The notes under the pieces were generated by a model, which was given only the letters and a program-made list of their open reading frames with translations, was not told the DNA's origin and ran no database searches. A DNA stretch of 64,000 nt from an uncultured Candidatus Saccharibacteria bacterium (GTDB lineage Bacteria; Patescibacteriota; Saccharimonadia; Saccharimonadales; AWTP1-31), in contig CAZXTE010000001.1 in assembly GCA_964643545.1 (NCBI GenBank), positions 19,101 to 83,100 of the forward strand, given 5' to 3'. Within the stretch, counting starts at the first letter, position 1. The number at the start of each line of letters is the position of its first letter. This document shows positions 37,829 through 41,575 of the stretch, piece by piece. A program made the position numbers and the translations under genes.

Positions 37829-40800
37829 TTAGCTCCCAGTATGAGACCAATGCCATGGCTCATTCCAGTACTGCTTTAGATTATACTTTCCGGCGTTATC
37901 TATGAGCCAGTCCCACATCGGCATGCCGGGGGCAACACGAGGGTTGCTGGGGCTAGCTTTCCCACCATTTTTTGTGCCAAACTCCTCAGGGTGACCAACT
38001 CGAGTAAGCGCAAAATCTACGGCATCACCAGACTGATGTCTAGATGTTCCAGGCTTTGCGACATCGGAGTAGACGCCGTTAGGGCACTTATCATCTTTTG
38101 CGCACAGCTCTTGTTGGTGCTTCATGGTGCGAAAACTACTGGAGGCTTTGGGTGAGACGCCATCGCTCTTCATGGCGTTAAACATGTTCACCCAATCATT
38201 TGATTTGTCTGCTGCCACGAGTACGTTACCATCTGCCCCATTTACGTAATATTGACTACGCGGATTACTCTCCTCGCTTGAACTTGGGAAGCCAAGGATC
38301 GCACACAGGGTTATCTTCTTTAGAACGCCACCTTCATACCCATCGGCAAGCCCCACGTTCTTGGTGCCACTTGCACAGGTTCCGTCGCCCGTACCTCCCG
38401 TAGAGGCGGGGGGTGGTCCAAGACTCGCCACAAGAAAGTCGCTCTTTGCCAGGTATCCTGCAGCAGTATGGTGAATTTTATCTGGCGCAAACGGATACTT
38501 AGCTGGATTTTTAGCCACCTCGGCACGCCAGTCAATGGGTGTATATTTCAGGGCAGCCGCCTGGCTCGAAACTGCCGCCGCGACAGCATCGTAATTGGAA
38601 ATTTGGGTTTTTGCATTCATCCAGAATATCTTCGCCGAGGGGTTGTATTCGTGGATTTTGTCGACCATGAGTTTTATTTTGCTCGCGAACTGGGGGCTGT
38701 CTGGTCCTGGGTTTGTGCCCAGCATGACCGCTATTGTCCCGGCACGGCTAACTTCGTTTCTATCGAGGTCGATCTTTTCTAGAGATCGGTCAACGTCTAT
38801 ACCGTCGGTTGCCTGGACCTTGGTAACTTCCCACCCAGCAGTTTGCAGCTTGTTCGTTAATGAGCCTAAGTCTTTCATGCCGTTTGTCAACGAGTCGCCA
38901 ACGACGTAGACTGCATTATTGCCACCCCCACTATTTGAACCTCCGCCCCCGCTGGTGGTTTCAGATTCATAATCTTCCGGGTCGAGCACATCAGTTGTAT
39001 ATCGGCCACCAGCTGCCGCCACAGCCTTCTTATTTAGCAAGCAAGGGTTTTCCTTGGTGTGCACGTCGGTGCCCGTCTCCTTGTCCTCTATAAGCGTACC
39101 TGCAAATTCACCGCGCCCATTCGCCCAGTCTTTATCCATCTTTTCACAGACGGCGTCGGTAAGCGTGTCTGGGTCAACATCAAGTGCTGACGAATTCTTT
39201 GGAAAGCCATATTGGACGACACCAAATGGGTCAGGCTTTGCATCTGCTGCAAAGGTCTTTTTGGTGGCAAGTAAACTGCCAAAACTTTTTGACAGGCTTG
39301 TGAATGGATTTGCGAGAAGACCGGTGACGCCTGTATTGGCGGTTCTAGTCACACTGCTGGGTGTAGCCATCGCCATTTGGCTGACAAGTGATTTTGGACT
39401 CTCTGTGCTGAACATACGAGCAAAGAATGGTTGACGTTGGAATTCCTCGTTGCGCTGATTCTCTTGGTCGGCGCGAATCTCGGCTACCTGGGCGTCGGTG
39501 AGGCGTATGCCCCCCAGGCCATAGTGTGCATCATTATTCCCTGCTACATCGGCACCGCCTGCGAGCATATCGAATGTGCGGGCCCCGCTCATGTCTGCAG
39601 ACACTGGTGACGGGATTAGCCACTTCGCAATTGTTTCGAATATCTTGCCGATTTGTTCCTCAATCATCTTCTTTAGGTCAGCGTATTGAGGAAAGATCTT
39701 GCTAATTGCTGCCTCGACAGCACCTACGCCCAGATCAATGAGCTTATTGATCAAGTTAAGGATTTGTCCGATTGTGGCGTTCCATGCATCTGCCGTCTGC
39801 CCGAGCAGACTAAGTGGGGGTTGATTAAAGATGTCAGATATTTTCTGGATGACCCCATTGGTAAGCAGACTTTCCTCTGGGCAAATAAGCTTACCGGTGT
39901 CTGGCTTATTCTTATCGTCACATGTGTATTTTGGCTCTGACGCAGTGCTGCCCGTTTCTGCTGCGTATGCTTTTTGCGGCGACAGGACATCCAAAAAGGA
40001 GCTTTTTTGTATTGGTTCGCCTAGGATGTCCCCGTAGAGTGGTGCTAATTCAGCGGGTTGATTTTTGTGGTCTTTATCACCGGCGCTGTCACCCACACCA
40101 TTCGTCATGCTACCGAGCAACTCGACGTTACAATGCATGCCTTTGCACTCGTCTGCAGTTGTTCTATACAGCATGTAGGTTGCCACCATTTGCGTGCCAA
40201 TAATTTCGTATTTCCAGCGTTTCAATGCCGGCCCAGCTGACTTAGCTTTCGCGGTAATTCTGGCTGCTAGGTCAATCCAGCCAATAACAGGCAAGCCTTT
40301 CGAGGCGGCTGACCCTGCAGCCTCTCCGGCAATCTTCGCAACAACCTCTTCAACAATAAAAGCAGTTAAGCTCTTGTCTGCGAGTTTAATTGTCTTCTCA
40401 ACAATTTTTTCTACGGTCTCCTCGGTGAATTCTTTGCCAGACTTCTCAAGTGCCTCACGAATTTGTTTCTCTATTTTGTCTCTCCTCACTCCGTCATTGT
40501 CAGCTTCACCCTTCGATGCTTTGTCCGAATCACAGGCAGGATCGATGATACACTCTAATACAAAACCCAGATGTTGAGTGTAGGGTATGATGACCCGGCG
40601 ATTAATGACGAGCCTGAAGGCTCCCTTCTTTTTGTCTTTCCAGTCGTCTATGCGATCTTTTGATTTGCACGCAAAAACACACCTCCGGATGCCGTATTTT
40701 TCTTCCAGAAGTCGCCCCACCTTGAATCGGTACATAACACGCTTCCACAATGTCTCTTCTTTGAAAGACTCACGTACTTTTATGCGAACATCATTTCTGC

Positions 40801-41575
40801 CACCTGCTGCCTTCCACATACCCTGGTTTGGGTCTTTTCGCCAGCCTTCTACGTCAAGGTTACTCACTTTGTCATTGACCTTAATCTTGTAGTCGCTTGC
40901 CCCGCCACTAAAACCATCCCGGGTTATTTCTATGCCGTATTTCTCGGATAGTTTATTCTCGAGGCGTGCATCGCGCCAACCCCTAAACAAGCGGGCAGCC
41001 GGCGAATCGCCTTCTAGATTGGCAATACAATTTTTGTCTATTGTCCCAGACGAACGACTACAGGTTCCCTTGCCTAGGTTTGGGATCACCTTATCTCGGA
41101 GGTACTTGTCTAGTAGCCTTTCTGCTCTCGTTTGCACAGCACTCTCCGAGCTGGCAAAAAAGCGACTCTGCAAATTTTCCATGATGTGGTTAATCTTCAA
41201 GGGCAAAAACGCCATGAATGCGGCCAGAATCAAACCGCCAATGCCACCCCCAATAAGCCCAGCACCAATCAATTTCTTTTTTTTGCCGCCCGTGGCACCT
41301 GCTAAAAATTTCTTAAGGCTTTGAAGGTCTTTTACATCCTCAGTATTGTAGCCGCTCCCAACCCTATCGCCGAGCGCATCTGCTTCTCTTGATGCGGCTC
41401 CGCCAACACCATCCGCTGCCTCTCCCTGAGCCTCTTGCTCTGAGATATTTGGTGTTTCTGTCGAAGCGTCACCACTGGCCTCGTTTGTTAGTTTGGGGTC
41501 CTCATCTCCGCCCCCCACACTTCCTGATGCTCTTCGAGGCGAGTCATCGTCATATATTTTTGATGGTTCACCCAT
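37829..41575 (-). CDS. 1248-aa membrane-anchored protein: acidic cytoplasmic N-tail, one TM, ~750-aa unknown ectodomain, SGNH/GDSL hydrolase, C-terminal VanY/LAS-type D,D- or L,D-carboxypeptidase
   Basis: TM is LIGAGLIGGGIGGLILAAFMAFL. GDSL block is VYVVGDSLTNGM. LAS metallopeptidase motifs are SRHQSGDAVDF (H-x6-D) and the terminal EPWHW. Confidence 0.7.
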   Translation of the reverse strand: MGEPSKIYDDDSPRRASGSVGGGDEDPKLTNEASGDASTETPNISEQEAQGEAADGVGGAASREADALGDRVGSGYNTEDVKDLQSLKKFLAGATGGKKKKLIGAGLIGGGIGGLILAAFMAFLPLKINHIMENLQSRFFASSESAVQTRAERLLDKYLRDKVIPNLGKGTCSRSSGTIDKNCIANLEGDSPAARLFRGWRDARLENKLSEKYGIEITRDGFSGGASDYKIKVNDKVSNLDVEGWRKDPNQGMWKAAGGRNDVRIKVRESFKEETLWKRVMYRFKVGRLLEEKYGIRRCVFACKSKDRIDDWKDKKKGAFRLVINRRVIIPYTQHLGFVLECIIDPACDSDKASKGEADNDGVRRDKIEKQIREALEKSGKEFTEETVEKIVEKTIKLADKSLTAFIVEEVVAKIAGEAAGSAASKGLPVIGWIDLAARITAKAKSAGPALKRWKYEIIGTQMVATYMLYRTTADECKGMHCNVELLGSMTNGVGDSAGDKDHKNQPAELAPLYGDILGEPIQKSSFLDVLSPQKAYAAETGSTASEPKYTCDDKNKPDTGKLICPEESLLTNGVIQKISDIFNQPPLSLLGQTADAWNATIGQILNLINKLIDLGVGAVEAAISKIFPQYADLKKMIEEQIGKIFETIAKWLIPSPVSADMSGARTFDMLAGGADVAGNNDAHYGLGGIRLTDAQVAEIRADQENQRNEEFQRQPFFARMFSTESPKSLVSQMAMATPSSVTRTANTGVTGLLANPFTSLSKSFGSLLATKKTFAADAKPDPFGVVQYGFPKNSSALDVDPDTLTDAVCEKMDKDWANGRGEFAGTLIEDKETGTDVHTKENPCLLNKKAVAAAGGRYTTDVLDPEDYESETTSGGGGSNSGGGNNAVYVVGDSLTNGMKDLGSLTNKLQTAGWEVTKVQATDGIDVDRSLEKIDLDRNEVSRAGTIAVMLGTNPGPDSPQFASKIKLMVDKIHEYNPSAKIFWMNAKTQISNYDAVAAAVSSQAAALKYTPIDWRAEVAKNPAKYPFAPDKIHHTAAGYLAKSDFLVASLGPPPASTGGTGDGTCASGTKNVGLADGYEGGVLKKITLCAILGFPSSSEESNPRSQYYVNGADGNVLVAADKSNDWVNMFNAMKSDGVSPKASSSFRTMKHQQELCAKDDKCPNGVYSDVAKPGTSRHQSGDAVDFALTRVGHPEEFGTKNGGKASPSNPRVAPGMPMWDWLIDNAGKYNLKQYWNEPWHWSHTGS

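What the first reader, a model, noticed from the sequence alone, without database searches (positions are those of the whole stretch)
37829..41575. 1248-aa membrane-anchored protein combining an SGNH esterase with a VanY/LAS peptidase behind a ~750-aa unknown ectodomain
The topology reads as an acidic, low-complexity cytoplasmic N-tail of about 100 aa, then one TM, then a very long uncharacterised exported region. A GDSL/SGNH block (VYVVGDSLTNGM) and a C-terminal LAS-type carboxypeptidase (SRHQSGDAVDF, EPWHW) follow. The gene is encoded immediately after virB4. T4SS-associated wall hydrolases (VirB1, PrgK, TcpG) are usually lytic transglycosylase or CHAP types. An esterase plus D-Ala carboxypeptidase combination fits deacetylating and trimming peptidoglycan. 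Its size suggests a reach beyond the cell's own wall, possibly into a host wall.
Basis: partly seen in the sequence, partly recalled or inferred. Interest (0 to 1): 0.65.

Follow-up and report, generated by a model that had tools for sequence, protein, structure and literature searches.

The report
Saccharibacterial T4SS scaffold with swappable wall-enzyme head

Summary
A 1248-aa ORF lies on the minus strand at 37829-41575, 26 nt after virB4. It has an acidic N-tail, one TM helix, a roughly 740-aa ectodomain with no known relative, an SGNH domain and a VanY/M15B peptidase, both with intact catalytic motifs.

The "unknown" ectodomain defines the family: 1884 representatives were found, and every genome locus recovered carries a Saccharibacteria-type context. 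It sits directly after virB4 in 31 of 33 loci. The enzyme head is interchangeable. Among 181 members, heads are LAS peptidases, SGNH, GH5, PLC-like, EEP, beta-lactamase fold, or absent (19%). Head type barely follows the ectodomain's own relatedness. The SGNH+VanY tandem recurs in at least one distant member.

The next gene (here GH3 + NlpC/P60) is a second, equally mosaic wall hydrolase. The gene in the same position in Southlakia epibionticum (SEML1_0007) is essential by Tn-seq.

Best reading: a T4SS-coupled extracellular scaffold that presents wall-editing enzymes. They act with the downstream hydrolase to open peptidoglycan for the channel or pilus. Whether the target is the cell's own wall or the host's is unresolved.

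I rate it a new variant of a known kind, with moderate to high interest.

The parts
41273..41575 (-). Cytoplasmic N-tail, aa 1-101. It is acidic and Gly-rich, ends in KKKK, and has a conserved N-terminus (MxxPxxxYD).
   Evidence: Composition, pI 4.2. All homologues have a 54-155 aa tail with the same N-terminal motif.
41198..41272 (-). Single transmembrane signal-anchor, about aa 102-126.
   Evidence: It is the only segment with a Kyte-Doolittle 19-residue mean above 1.6. AF2 models a helix running from the TM into the conserved juxtamembrane motif PLKIxHIxxNLQ.
38981..41197 (-). Conserved all-alpha ectodomain ('core'), aa 127-865, with 10 conserved Cys. It ends in the motif NPCLL...GG...L(T/D)xxD. 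This is the module that defines the family.
   Evidence: Alignment invariants. AF2 pLDDT 75, pTM 0.83, almost all helix. No fold or sequence match anywhere. 1884 representatives in a search of 1.84 billion proteins.
38912..38980 (-). Gly/Ser-rich linker 1, aa 866-888 (PEDYESETTSGGGGSNSGGGNNA).
   Evidence: Sequence. pLDDT below 50 in the C-terminal model. This is the point where homologues diverge or stop.
38390..38911 (-). SGNH/GDSL domain, aa 889-1062. Catalytic residues: S895, G925, N955, D1032, H1035.
   Evidence: PF13472 E=1.6e-7. Motifs. Foldseek matches: PatB 8tlb E=4.7e-6, OatA-C 6wn9 (TM-score normalised to target 0.76), Ape1 4k3u E=2e-3. Closest relatives P0052 and P0053 are 51% and 48% identical.
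38336..38389 (-). Linker 2, aa 1063-1080 (PPPASTGGTGDG...).
   Evidence: Sequence. Low pLDDT at positions 192-199 of the model.
37832..38335 (-). VanY / M15B (LAS) zinc peptidase module, aa 1081-1248. Key residues: R1149, H1180, D1187, E1239, H1242.
   Evidence: PF02557 E=3.9e-15. Aligned to 4mph, 4jid and 4ox3. Foldseek VanYB 5hnm E=3.3e-6. Collinear with the heads of P0002, P0025 and P0153.
35401..37863 (-). Partner gene: an 820-aa secreted hydrolase. It has a GH3 NagZ-like domain (aa 97-403), an unassigned middle region, and an NlpC/P60-like domain (C712, H776).
   Evidence: PF00933 E=1e-63, NlpC/P60 E=0.0023. NCBIfam beta-N-acetylhexosaminidase E=1.5e-47, below its cut-off. Its positional equivalents in 29 loci are mosaic peptidoglycan hydrolases.
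41602..43515 (-). VirB4 ATPase, 637 aa, lying directly upstream.
   Evidence: NCBIfam NF045971 E=2.4e-103, above its cut-off. Median 83% identity across loci.
43515..44387 (-). TrsD / TraC-like protein resembling the VirB4 N-domain, 290 aa.
   Evidence: NCBIfam TrsD E=1e-5. PF26593 TraC-like is annotated on the equivalent genes of L001-L004.
44428..45471 (-). PrgI (VirB3-like) protein, 347 aa.
   Evidence: PF12666 E=3.4e-11.
46548..49844 (-). Polytopic membrane protein of 1098 aa in the VirB6/TrbL position.
   Evidence: The sequence shows multiple hydrophobic helices. Positional equivalents carry PF19590 TrbL_3. The window protein itself has no Pfam hit.
50447..53460 (+). Array of six VirB2-like T4SS pilin genes.
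   Evidence: PF18895 T4SS_pilin, E from 1.4e-13 to 6e-3. The same array is present in L001 and L002.
34352..35387 (-). Two small membrane-anchored proteins (132 and 211 aa) that close the operon before recF.
   Evidence: ORFs with an N-terminal hydrophobic helix. No family match. Genes of similar size and position occur in L001-L003. Their S. epibionticum counterparts SEML1_0004 and 0005 are essential.

Best explanation
The protein belongs to a Saccharibacteria-wide family encoded in the chromosomal T4SS locus. SEML1_0007 of Southlakia epibionticum occupies the same position.

Shown:
- It is a type II membrane protein with a short acidic cytoplasmic tail.
- The bulk is a conserved, Cys-rich, all-helical extracellular domain of unknown fold.
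- That domain ends in a flexible linker carrying an exchangeable enzyme head. Here the head is an SGNH domain of the peptidoglycan O-acetyl-modifying type followed by a VanY/LdcB-type zinc carboxypeptidase. Both have complete catalytic motifs.
- The gene is always paired with a downstream mosaic wall hydrolase and almost always follows virB4.

Inferred mechanism:
- The helical ectodomain is a structural, T4SS-associated scaffold. It holds the head in or beyond the cell wall next to the channel and pilus.
- The SGNH domain removes O-acetyl groups that block glycan-cleaving enzymes.
- The peptidase trims stem peptides.
- The downstream GH3/NlpC-P60 enzyme cuts glycan ends and cross-links.
- Together they locally open peptidoglycan so that the T4SS and its VirB2-like pilus can pass.

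The cell's own wall is the likely target. The host wall is also possible.
For: - Domain identity and catalytic residues.
- Family size and restriction to Saccharibacteria-type genomes.
- Synteny: virB4 lies directly upstream in 31 of 33 distinct loci that hold upstream DNA. The order pilins / VirB6 / PrgI / TrsD / VirB4 / this gene / hydrolase / small proteins / recF-dnaN-dnaA is conserved.
- The scaffold is the conserved part. Nine of 33 loci have a headless gene ending in a verified stop codon, as do 34 of 181 members.
- Peptidoglycan theme: about 62% of all members (80% of those with a head) carry LAS-superfamily peptidases of VanY, HxH/Hedgehog-DD-peptidase or M23-like type.
- Synergy with glycan cleavage: the closest relatives of the SGNH domain (51% identical) sit in the downstream-gene position of another T4SS locus, fused to a glucosaminidase domain and an unassigned ES...GIPQ motif that looks SLT-like by eye. 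SGNH domains occur in 5 of 29 downstream genes.
- Same gene order as prgJ (VirB4)-prgK (hydrolase) in pCF10, and an N-in TM topology like PrgK. This rests on my own knowledge.
- Essentiality of the gene in the same position, and of the whole locus: PMC10633639 Tables S1 and S2.
- PMC12102498 proposes that these genes fulfil the VirB1 role.
Against: - There is no direct evidence that the protein contacts the T4SS.
- The ectodomain matches no known T4SS subunit (VirB5, VirB8, VirB10, PrgK) or any other fold.
- A carboxypeptidase and an esterase do not themselves open holes in peptidoglycan.
- Some family heads are not peptidoglycan enzymes: GH5, PLC-like phosphoesterase, EEP and beta-helix. This fits poorly with a purely self-wall role.
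- The SGNH domain's best structural neighbours include O-acetyltransferases.
- Tn-seq essentiality of SEML1_0007 could reflect polarity on the essential downstream genes.
- Correspondence to SEML1_0007 rests on position, length and head type. No sequence alignment was made.
- Two loci (L025, L035) keep the two-gene pair without virB4 upstream.
Confidence: 0.6

Rival explanations
1. Host-directed enzyme platform. The scaffold, as part of the T4SS or pilus base or tip, presents heads that attack the HOST envelope at the epibiont-host contact, either to breach it or to harvest building blocks. Heads are swapped to match host envelope chemistry.
For: - Heads are extremely diverse. They include enzymes with no obvious substrate in the producer's own wall: GH5 cellulase-like, PLC-like phosphoesterase, EEP, beta-helix and beta-lactamase fold.
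- Head type matches that of the nearest core relative in only 42 of 181 cases, against about 14% expected by chance. The 14 closest core relatives of the query carry at least 8 head types.
- There is a steep conservation gradient from cytoplasm to surface: VirB4 83%, TrsD 69%, PrgI 41%, core 33%, and the downstream hydrolase is not alignable.
- The T4SS is essential for epibiotic growth and its role is unknown (PMC11665869).
- Tubular structures extending toward the host are seen in another patescibacterium (bioRxiv 10.64898/2026.06.21.733656).
Against: - Nothing shows that the protein leaves the producer's membrane. It has an uncleaved-looking N-terminal anchor and no predicted release site.
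- Most heads are peptidoglycan peptidases, which would serve equally well on the cell's own wall.
- Diversity could reflect relaxed constraint, if any wall-loosening activity will do.
- No head-to-host correlation could be tested, because the hosts of these MAGs are unknown.
Confidence: 0.3
2. The SGNH domain is a peptidoglycan O-acetyltransferase (OatA-C/PatB-like), not an esterase. It would modify wall around the T4SS, for example to protect the producer's wall from its own or host lysozymes.
For: - Foldseek ranks PatB 8tlb (E=4.7e-6) and OatA-C 5ufy and 6wn9 (TM-score normalised to target 0.75-0.76) above the esterase Ape1 4k3u (E=2e-3).
- At about 170 aa, the domain is of the small OatA-C size.
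Against: - Transferases of this type need a membrane acetyl-donor partner: an AT3 or MBOAT domain in the same protein or an adjacent gene (my own knowledge of OatA and PatA/PatB).
- The protein has only one TM helix, and none of the annotated neighbours is AT3 or MBOAT.
- Its closest relatives are fused to glycan-cleaving domains, which fits de-O-acetylation before cleavage.
- Generic SGNH esterases score equally well.
Confidence: 0.1
3. An ordinary housekeeping wall-maturation enzyme (LdcB/VanY-type carboxypeptidase) that merely happens to lie next to virB4.
For: NCBI annotates it simply as 'D-alanyl-D-alanine carboxypeptidase family protein'. VanY/LdcB enzymes are common housekeeping enzymes.
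Against: - The position after virB4 is conserved in 31 of 33 loci, while the peptidase head itself is not conserved.
- 70% of the protein is a T4SS-locus-specific domain.
- Headless members exist.
- The gene in the same position is essential together with the whole T4SS block.
Confidence: 0.03

Closest known systems
SEML1_0007 of Southlakia epibionticum ML1 (Wang et al. 2023, PMC10633639)
   Same: - It lies immediately downstream of the VirB4/TraC gene and upstream of a lysozyme + cysteine-peptidase gene, next to recF-dnaN-dnaA.
- It is 1113 aa, and only its C-terminus (951-1105) is assigned, as Hedgehog/DD-peptidase.
- Its full-length Foldseek hits are CPR proteins labelled M15B or M23 peptidase.
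- It is essential in Tn-seq.
   Different: - It has a single HxH-type LAS head. The window protein has an SGNH domain inserted before a VanY-type head.
- Its partner gene is lysozyme/lysozyme/Cys-peptidase rather than GH3/NlpC-P60.
- Orthology is inferred from position and architecture. The sequences were not aligned here.
PrgK (pCF10), TraG (pIP501) and TrsG: VirB1-like hydrolases of Gram-positive conjugative T4SS
   Same: They are encoded right after the VirB4 homologue. They have an N-terminal membrane anchor and extracellular wall-degrading domains, and the T4SS needs them to cross a thick wall. This rests on my own knowledge and on PMC12102498.
   Different: - Those proteins use SLT, LytM and CHAP domains and have no large helical ectodomain.
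- The window protein has no SLT or CHAP domain.
- It has no relative on any PLSDB plasmid.
CwlT of ICEBs1 (two-domain muramidase + NlpC/P60 peptidase)
   Same: A T4SS-dedicated bifunctional wall hydrolase. Combining two activities in one T4SS locus is the same logic.
   Different: CwlT resembles the DOWNSTREAM gene of this locus (glycosidase + NlpC/P60) much more than the 1248-aa protein.
VanY / LdcB (MEROPS M15B) carboxypeptidases
   Same: Same fold and the same zinc and catalytic motifs: SxHxxGxAxD and ExxH.
   Different: Those are small stand-alone enzymes of about 180-270 aa. Here the domain is the terminal module of a 1248-aa T4SS-locus protein. DD versus LD specificity is not predictable from sequence.
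Ape1, OatA C-domain and PatB: SGNH enzymes that remove or add peptidoglycan O-acetyl groups
   Same: SGNH fold with a Ser-His-Asp triad. These are the best structural neighbours.
   Different: Sequence identity is only 17-20%. There is no acetyl-donor partner domain. The direction of the reaction and the substrate are untested.
Polymorphic toxin or effector architectures (conserved delivery module + variable C-terminal enzyme)
   Same: A conserved N-terminal module is joined at a conserved motif to highly variable C-terminal enzymes that are shuffled relative to the core's relatedness.
   Different: No cognate immunity gene is evident. Most heads are wall-remodelling enzymes rather than toxins. 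The protein is membrane-anchored and there is no evidence that it is delivered.

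Membership tests
SGNH/GDSL hydrolase superfamily (PF13472) | Block I GDS(L) with the nucleophilic Ser | tested here: met
   G893-D894-S895 within VYVVGDSLTNGM. Conserved in P0052, P0053, P0153 and P0088.
SGNH/GDSL hydrolase superfamily (PF13472) | Block II Gly, block III GxN and block V DxxH | tested here: met
   G925 (QATDG), G953-T-N955 and D1032-K-I-H1035.
SGNH/GDSL hydrolase superfamily (PF13472) | Score at or above Pfam's gathering threshold | tested here: inconclusive
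   32.4 bits against a cut-off of 32.9, E=1.6e-7. Homologous heads reach 37.8 and 46.9 bits.
SGNH/GDSL hydrolase superfamily (PF13472) | Three-layer alpha/beta/alpha SGNH fold | tested here: met
   AF2 model, pLDDT about 75-85 across the domain. Foldseek probability 1.00 to 8tlb, 4h08, 5ufy, 6wn9, 1ivn and 4k3u.
SGNH/GDSL hydrolase superfamily (PF13472) | Esterase activity on O-acetyl peptidoglycan | not testable with these tools
   Needs an enzyme assay. Structural neighbours include both esterases and transferases.
VanY / peptidase M15B (LAS metallopeptidases) | Pfam PF02557 above the gathering score | tested here: met
   56.2 bits against 25, E=3.9e-15, covering profile positions 6-131 of 132.
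VanY / peptidase M15B (LAS metallopeptidases) | Zn ligands and catalytic base: SxHxxGxAxD ... ExxH | tested here: met
   S1178/H1180/D1187 and E1239/H1242, aligned to 4mph, 4jid and 4ox3.
VanY / peptidase M15B (LAS metallopeptidases) | Hedgehog/DD-peptidase fold | tested here: met
   Foldseek VanYB 5hnm E=3.3e-6, LdcB 4mph E=2.8e-5.
VanY / peptidase M15B (LAS metallopeptidases) | DD- (versus LD-) carboxypeptidase specificity | not testable with these tools
   Both VanY (DD) and LdcB (LD) are structural neighbours.
VirB1-like / PrgK-TraG-type T4SS wall hydrolases | Encoded within the T4SS operon next to virB4 | tested here: met
   A 26-nt gap after virB4. Conserved in 31 of 33 loci.
VirB1-like / PrgK-TraG-type T4SS wall hydrolases | Lytic transglycosylase / lysozyme-like (SLT) domain | tested here: not met
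VirB1-like / PrgK-TraG-type T4SS wall hydrolases | CHAP / NlpC-P60 peptidase domain | tested here: not met
   Absent from this protein. Present, weakly, in the downstream gene and in its equivalents.
VirB1-like / PrgK-TraG-type T4SS wall hydrolases | Required for T4SS function | not testable with these tools
   The only evidence is the Tn-seq essentiality of the S. epibionticum gene in the same position.
Saccharibacterial T4SS 'core + head' family (SEML1_0007-like; unnamed) | Full-length match to the conserved ectodomain with its 10 conserved Cys | tested here: met
   The window protein helped build the profile, but independent members match end to end.
Saccharibacterial T4SS 'core + head' family (SEML1_0007-like; unnamed) | N-tail + single TM + ectodomain architecture and the paired downstream hydrolase gene | tested here: met
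Saccharibacterial T4SS 'core + head' family (SEML1_0007-like; unnamed) | Direct sequence homology to SEML1_0007 itself | not tested
The link rests on position, length, head fold (ECOD template 6n7g, also the weak best PDB hit of the HxH heads) and Foldseek labels.
Polymorphic toxin-like systems | Conserved N-terminal module with a variable C-terminal enzyme | tested here: met
Polymorphic toxin-like systems | Adjacent cognate immunity gene that varies with the head | tested here: inconclusive
   The downstream genes are a hydrolase and two small membrane-anchored proteins. The small proteins diverge too fast to align. Their counterparts in S. epibionticum are essential beta-sandwich exported proteins. 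Co-variation with head type was not analysed.

The most novel reading that the evidence does not exclude
The family is the missing host-facing element of the essential Saccharibacterial T4SS. It would be a new structural subunit, filling the stalk or pilus-associated role for which no VirB5 or VirB8 homologue is recognisable. It would carry interchangeable host-envelope-degrading heads: peptidoglycan peptidases, O-acetyl esterases, GH5, PLC-like and EEP enzymes. Domain swapping, driven by an arms race with host envelopes, would diversify these heads. On this reading the head repertoire reports which host layer each lineage must breach or harvest.
Probability: 0.3. Interest if true: 0.85.

Novelty: new variant of a known kind. 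Interest (0 to 1): 0.58.

Why it matters
The T4SS of Saccharibacteria is essential for their epibiotic growth, yet its function is described as completely unknown (PMC11665869).

This family is the largest protein of the locus without any assignment. Apart from the downstream hydrolase, which cannot be aligned at all, it is the fastest-evolving component compared here. It is one of two adjacent genes in the locus that carry recognisable enzymes.

Two findings turn an anonymous 'hypothetical protein / carboxypeptidase' into a testable handle on how an ultrasmall parasite gets through two cell walls. First, the conserved part is a new extracellular scaffold. Second, the enzymes form a swappable head, mostly peptidoglycan peptidases but also esterases, glycosidases and phosphoesterases. 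The heads name candidate substrates, and the scaffold is a target for cryo-ET and interaction studies.

The conserved ectodomain also deserves a family definition of its own, since no Pfam or NCBIfam model covers it.

Tried and rejected
- **Phage tape-measure-like protein.** A long helical protein with a lytic C-terminus, as in T5 Pb2 (an analogy from memory), seemed possible. PHROGs hit only the VanY part, as 'endolysin', and BFVD gave no match, so there is no support.
- **Relative on conjugative plasmids.** tblastn of the core against PLSDB found no match.
- **PDB sequence search with the SGNH region alone.** No hit. The fold had to be confirmed by modelling instead.
- **'unknownA' heads.** This group of 25 members first looked new. 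A profile search links it to M23 peptidases (9gy1, E=6.6e-7).
- **Acetyl-donor partner for a transferase reading.** None was found among the annotated neighbours.
- **Naming S. epibionticum's protein among the hits.** P0079 has the same length of 1113 aa, but its cluster carries no name or accession, so direct orthology stays untested.
- **Full-length Pfam scan of all 49 first hits.** It exceeded the residue limit and was redone on 47.

Full report
**1. What is in the sequence.** The interval 37829-41575 holds one ORF on the minus strand. It starts with ATG at 41575, ends with a stop at 37829-31, and encodes 1248 aa. The plus strand is full of stops.

The upstream gene (41602-43515, minus strand) is a VirB4 ATPase of the CD1110 family. 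NCBIfam gives E=2.4e-103, above its cut-off. It ends 26 nt before the start codon.

Residues 1-97 are acidic and Gly-rich (pI 4.2). KKKK follows at 98-101. The only hydrophobic stretch of the protein is at about 102-126. This gives an N-in, C-out signal-anchor topology.

Pfam finds two domains:
- VanY, residues 1122-1247, E=3.9e-15, 56 bits against a cut-off of 25.
- Lipase_GDSL_2, residues 891-1041, E=1.6e-7, 32.4 bits against a cut-off of 32.9.

All diagnostic residues are present:
- SGNH blocks I (G893-D-S895), II (G925), III (G953-T-N955) and V (D1032-x-x-H1035).
- VanY motifs S1178-x-H-x-x-G-x-A-x-D1187 and E1239-x-x-H1242. These align with the solved LdcB and YodJ enzymes.

An AF2 model of residues 866-1248 (pLDDT 75) matches two sets of structures:
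- For the peptidase: VanYB (5hnm, E=3.3e-6) and LdcB.
- For the SGNH part: PatB (8tlb), OatA-C (5ufy; 6wn9, with a TM-score of 0.76 normalised to the target), generic GDSL esterases, and Ape1 more weakly.

**2. The 'unknown' region is the real family.** A search of 5.8 billion proteins with the full protein found 49 relatives. All of them match the N-terminal 54-84% of the query, not the enzymes.

The alignment shows three parts:
- a 54-155 aa tail;
- one TM helix;
- a core of 724-888 aa (typically 725-790) with 10 conserved Cys, several strongly conserved motifs, and a conserved terminal motif (NPCLL...GSAGG...LTxDDL).

A profile of the core found 1884 cluster representatives among 1.84 billion proteins, 608 of them at E<=1e-30. 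The best 150 match end to end.

A genome scan gave 34 loci. Most records are labelled Saccharibacteria or Saccharimonadales. A few carry other taxon labels or only generic ones (Limnocylindrales, Verrucomicrobiia, Sulfotelmatobacter, 'Patescibacteria group bacterium', 'bacterium', 'uncultured bacterium') but show the same gene context. The window's own protein is annotated in a Candidatus Saccharibacteria MAG as 'D-alanyl-D-alanine carboxypeptidase family protein'.

The core has no Pfam, NCBIfam or PHROG model. It has no sequence relative of known structure and no relative on PLSDB plasmids.

**3. Genomic context.** The window carries the typical Saccharibacterial T4SS block next to the replication origin. 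On the minus strand the order is:
- VirB6-position polytopic protein (46548-49844)
- a 323-aa ORF
- PrgI/VirB3-like
- TrsD/TraC-like
- VirB4
- the target
- an 820-aa GH3 + NlpC/P60 protein
- two small anchored proteins

The block is flanked by recF-dnaN-dnaA on one side and a divergent array of six VirB2-like pilins on the other.

The same order is seen in L001-L005. virB4 lies directly upstream of the family gene in 31 of the 33 distinct loci that include upstream DNA. In the two exceptions the pair 'family gene + hydrolase' still stays together.

Across loci, median identity to the window falls from cytoplasm to surface:
- VirB4: 83%
- TrsD-like: 69%
- PrgI: 41%
- the core: 33%
- the downstream hydrolase: no longer alignable

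| Head type | Members |
|---|---|
| HxH-type LAS (Hedgehog/DD-peptidase-like) | 53 |
| no head | 34 |
| divergent M23/LytM-like | 25 |
| VanY alone | 25 |
| SGNH alone | 16 |
| tandem ending in VanY | 6 |
| M23 (one with an added EEP domain) | 4 |
| beta-lactamase fold | 3 |
| GH5 | 3 |
| PLC-type phosphoesterase | 2 |
| short tail (40-119 aa, untyped) | 5 |
| beta-helix | 1 |
| other untyped singletons | 4 |

Headless genes end in genuine stop codons directly before the next gene in 9 of 33 loci.

The nearest core relative carries the same head type in only 42 of 181 cases, against about 14% expected by chance. The 14 closest core relatives of the query (41-45% identical) carry at least 8 head types.

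The window's SGNH+VanY tandem is not unique. P0153 has the same arrangement, collinear over 383 aa at 32% identity (E=4e-54). A 95%-identical orthologue exists in another MAG (L006).

The closest relatives of the SGNH domain (51% and 48% identical) are not in this family at all. They sit in the gene downstream of it in another T4SS locus, fused to a glucosaminidase domain and an unassigned ES...GIPQ motif that looks SLT-like by eye. Domains therefore move between the two adjacent hydrolase genes.

That downstream gene is itself a mosaic. Among 29 loci it carries Phage_lysozyme2 (15), CHAP (8), NlpC/P60 (6), M23 (5), GDSL (5), SLT or SLT_2 (7), glucosaminidase (3) and amidases. GH3 occurs only in the window.

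**5. Literature.**
- Wang et al. 2023 (PMC10633639) defined the S. epibionticum T4SS as SEML1_0006-0019 and found it essential.
- Their Table S1 lists SEML1_0007 (3342 nt, directly after the VirB4/TraC gene SEML1_0008) as essential. Table S2 assigns only residues 951-1105, as Hedgehog/DD-peptidase. The next gene, SEML1_0006, is annotated lysozyme/lysozyme/cysteine proteinase.
- Quinonero-Coronel et al. 2025 (PMC12102498) remark that these 'peptidase and lysozyme homologues immediately downstream of virB4' may replace VirB1.
- A 2024 perspective states that the role of the T4SS is completely unknown (PMC11665869).

**6. Mechanism.**

Shown: the architecture, intact active sites, T4SS-locus linkage, the pairing with a second hydrolase, and the modularity of the head.

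Inferred: the ectodomain is a T4SS-associated extracellular scaffold, and the head edits peptidoglycan. O-acetyl groups on MurNAc block lysozymes and lytic transglycosylases (established knowledge of the Ape/Oat/Pat systems). An SGNH esterase would unlock the glycan for the glycosidase encoded downstream. The VanY/LdcB-type peptidase would trim stem peptides, and the NlpC/P60 domain would cut them. Local opening of the wall would let the channel and the VirB2-like pilus pass.

Three points remain open:
- Self wall or host wall. Non-peptidoglycan heads and rapid swapping favour a host-facing role (rival 1, about 0.3).
- Esterase or O-acetyltransferase. The single TM helix and the lack of an AT3/MBOAT partner among the annotated neighbours argue for an esterase.
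- DD or LD specificity of the peptidase.

**7. Verdict.** The finding is real, and the domain calls were right. The protein does not meet the defining features of the classical VirB1/PrgK family, because it has no SLT or CHAP domain, but it probably works in the same functional niche. It is best filed as a member of an unnamed, Saccharibacteria-wide 'scaffold + swappable head' family, carrying a minority SGNH+VanY head. That makes it a new variant of a known kind (T4SS-associated wall enzymes). Interest is moderate to high, because the family offers a concrete entry point into an essential secretion system of unknown function.

Noticed in passing
window 35401-37863 (-): The downstream 820-aa protein combines a GH3 NagZ-like beta-N-acetylglucosaminidase domain (aa 97-403, E=1e-63), an unassigned middle region (aa about 430-650, motif HWREGS at 479) and an NlpC/P60-like end (DCGGFV at C712, GHTFIYVG at H776; Pfam E=0.0023). 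GH3 occurs in only 1 of 29 positional equivalents. If ATG 37863 is used, the gene overlaps the target by 35 nt. The likelier start is M19 (MSIVKKK..., signal-peptide-like).
   Followed up: partly
window 50447-53460 (+): An array of six divergent VirB2-like pilin genes (PF18895). The first product (328 aa) has a long Cys-rich N-terminal extension before the pilin domain, so it could be a specialised tip or adhesin pilin.
   Followed up: partly
window 41602-44387 (-): VirB4 is split. A TrsD/TraC-like N-domain protein (290 aa) is followed by the ATPase (637 aa), and the stop and start share position 43515. The arrangement is conserved in all related loci.
   Followed up: partly
window 45524-46495 (-): A 323-aa ORF with a TTG start, very hydrophilic and with a Pro/Ala-rich C-terminus, lies between the VirB6-position gene and PrgI. 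It has no family hit and no equivalent in L001 or L002. It could be a lineage-specific T4SS accessory gene or not a real gene.
   Followed up: no
window 34000-48000 versus flanks: G+C content in the T4SS block is 0.48-0.53, apart from one 0.454 window at 48001-50000. Most of the rest of the window is at 0.40-0.47, though later windows reach 0.494. The AT skew is also strongly negative in the block, which fits its minus-strand coding.
   Followed up: no
related loci L001-L039: Conservation falls steeply from the cytoplasmic to the surface T4SS proteins: VirB4 83%, TrsD 69%, PrgI 41%, core 33%, and the hydrolase and small anchored proteins cannot be aligned.
   Followed up: yes
family heads, e.g. 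P0057, P0062, P0070 (alignment A8): The M23-like head group (25 members) has an invariant R-x-D-x-G-x-D where M23 enzymes have HxxxD, and most members lack the HxH motif. These may be degenerate LytM-type domains that act as regulators rather than enzymes.
   Followed up: partly
L025 and L035: Two genomes keep the pair 'family gene + downstream hydrolase' but have no virB4 within about 5.7 kb upstream. The two-gene module can therefore be separated from the ATPase.
   Followed up: partly
window 17858-28363: Beyond yidC/rnpA/dnaA lies a surface-polysaccharide cluster: GT2 and GT4 glycosyltransferases, a Wzm/Wzt ABC exporter, a Wzy_C O-antigen-ligase-like protein and an FG-GAP repeat protein.
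   Followed up: no
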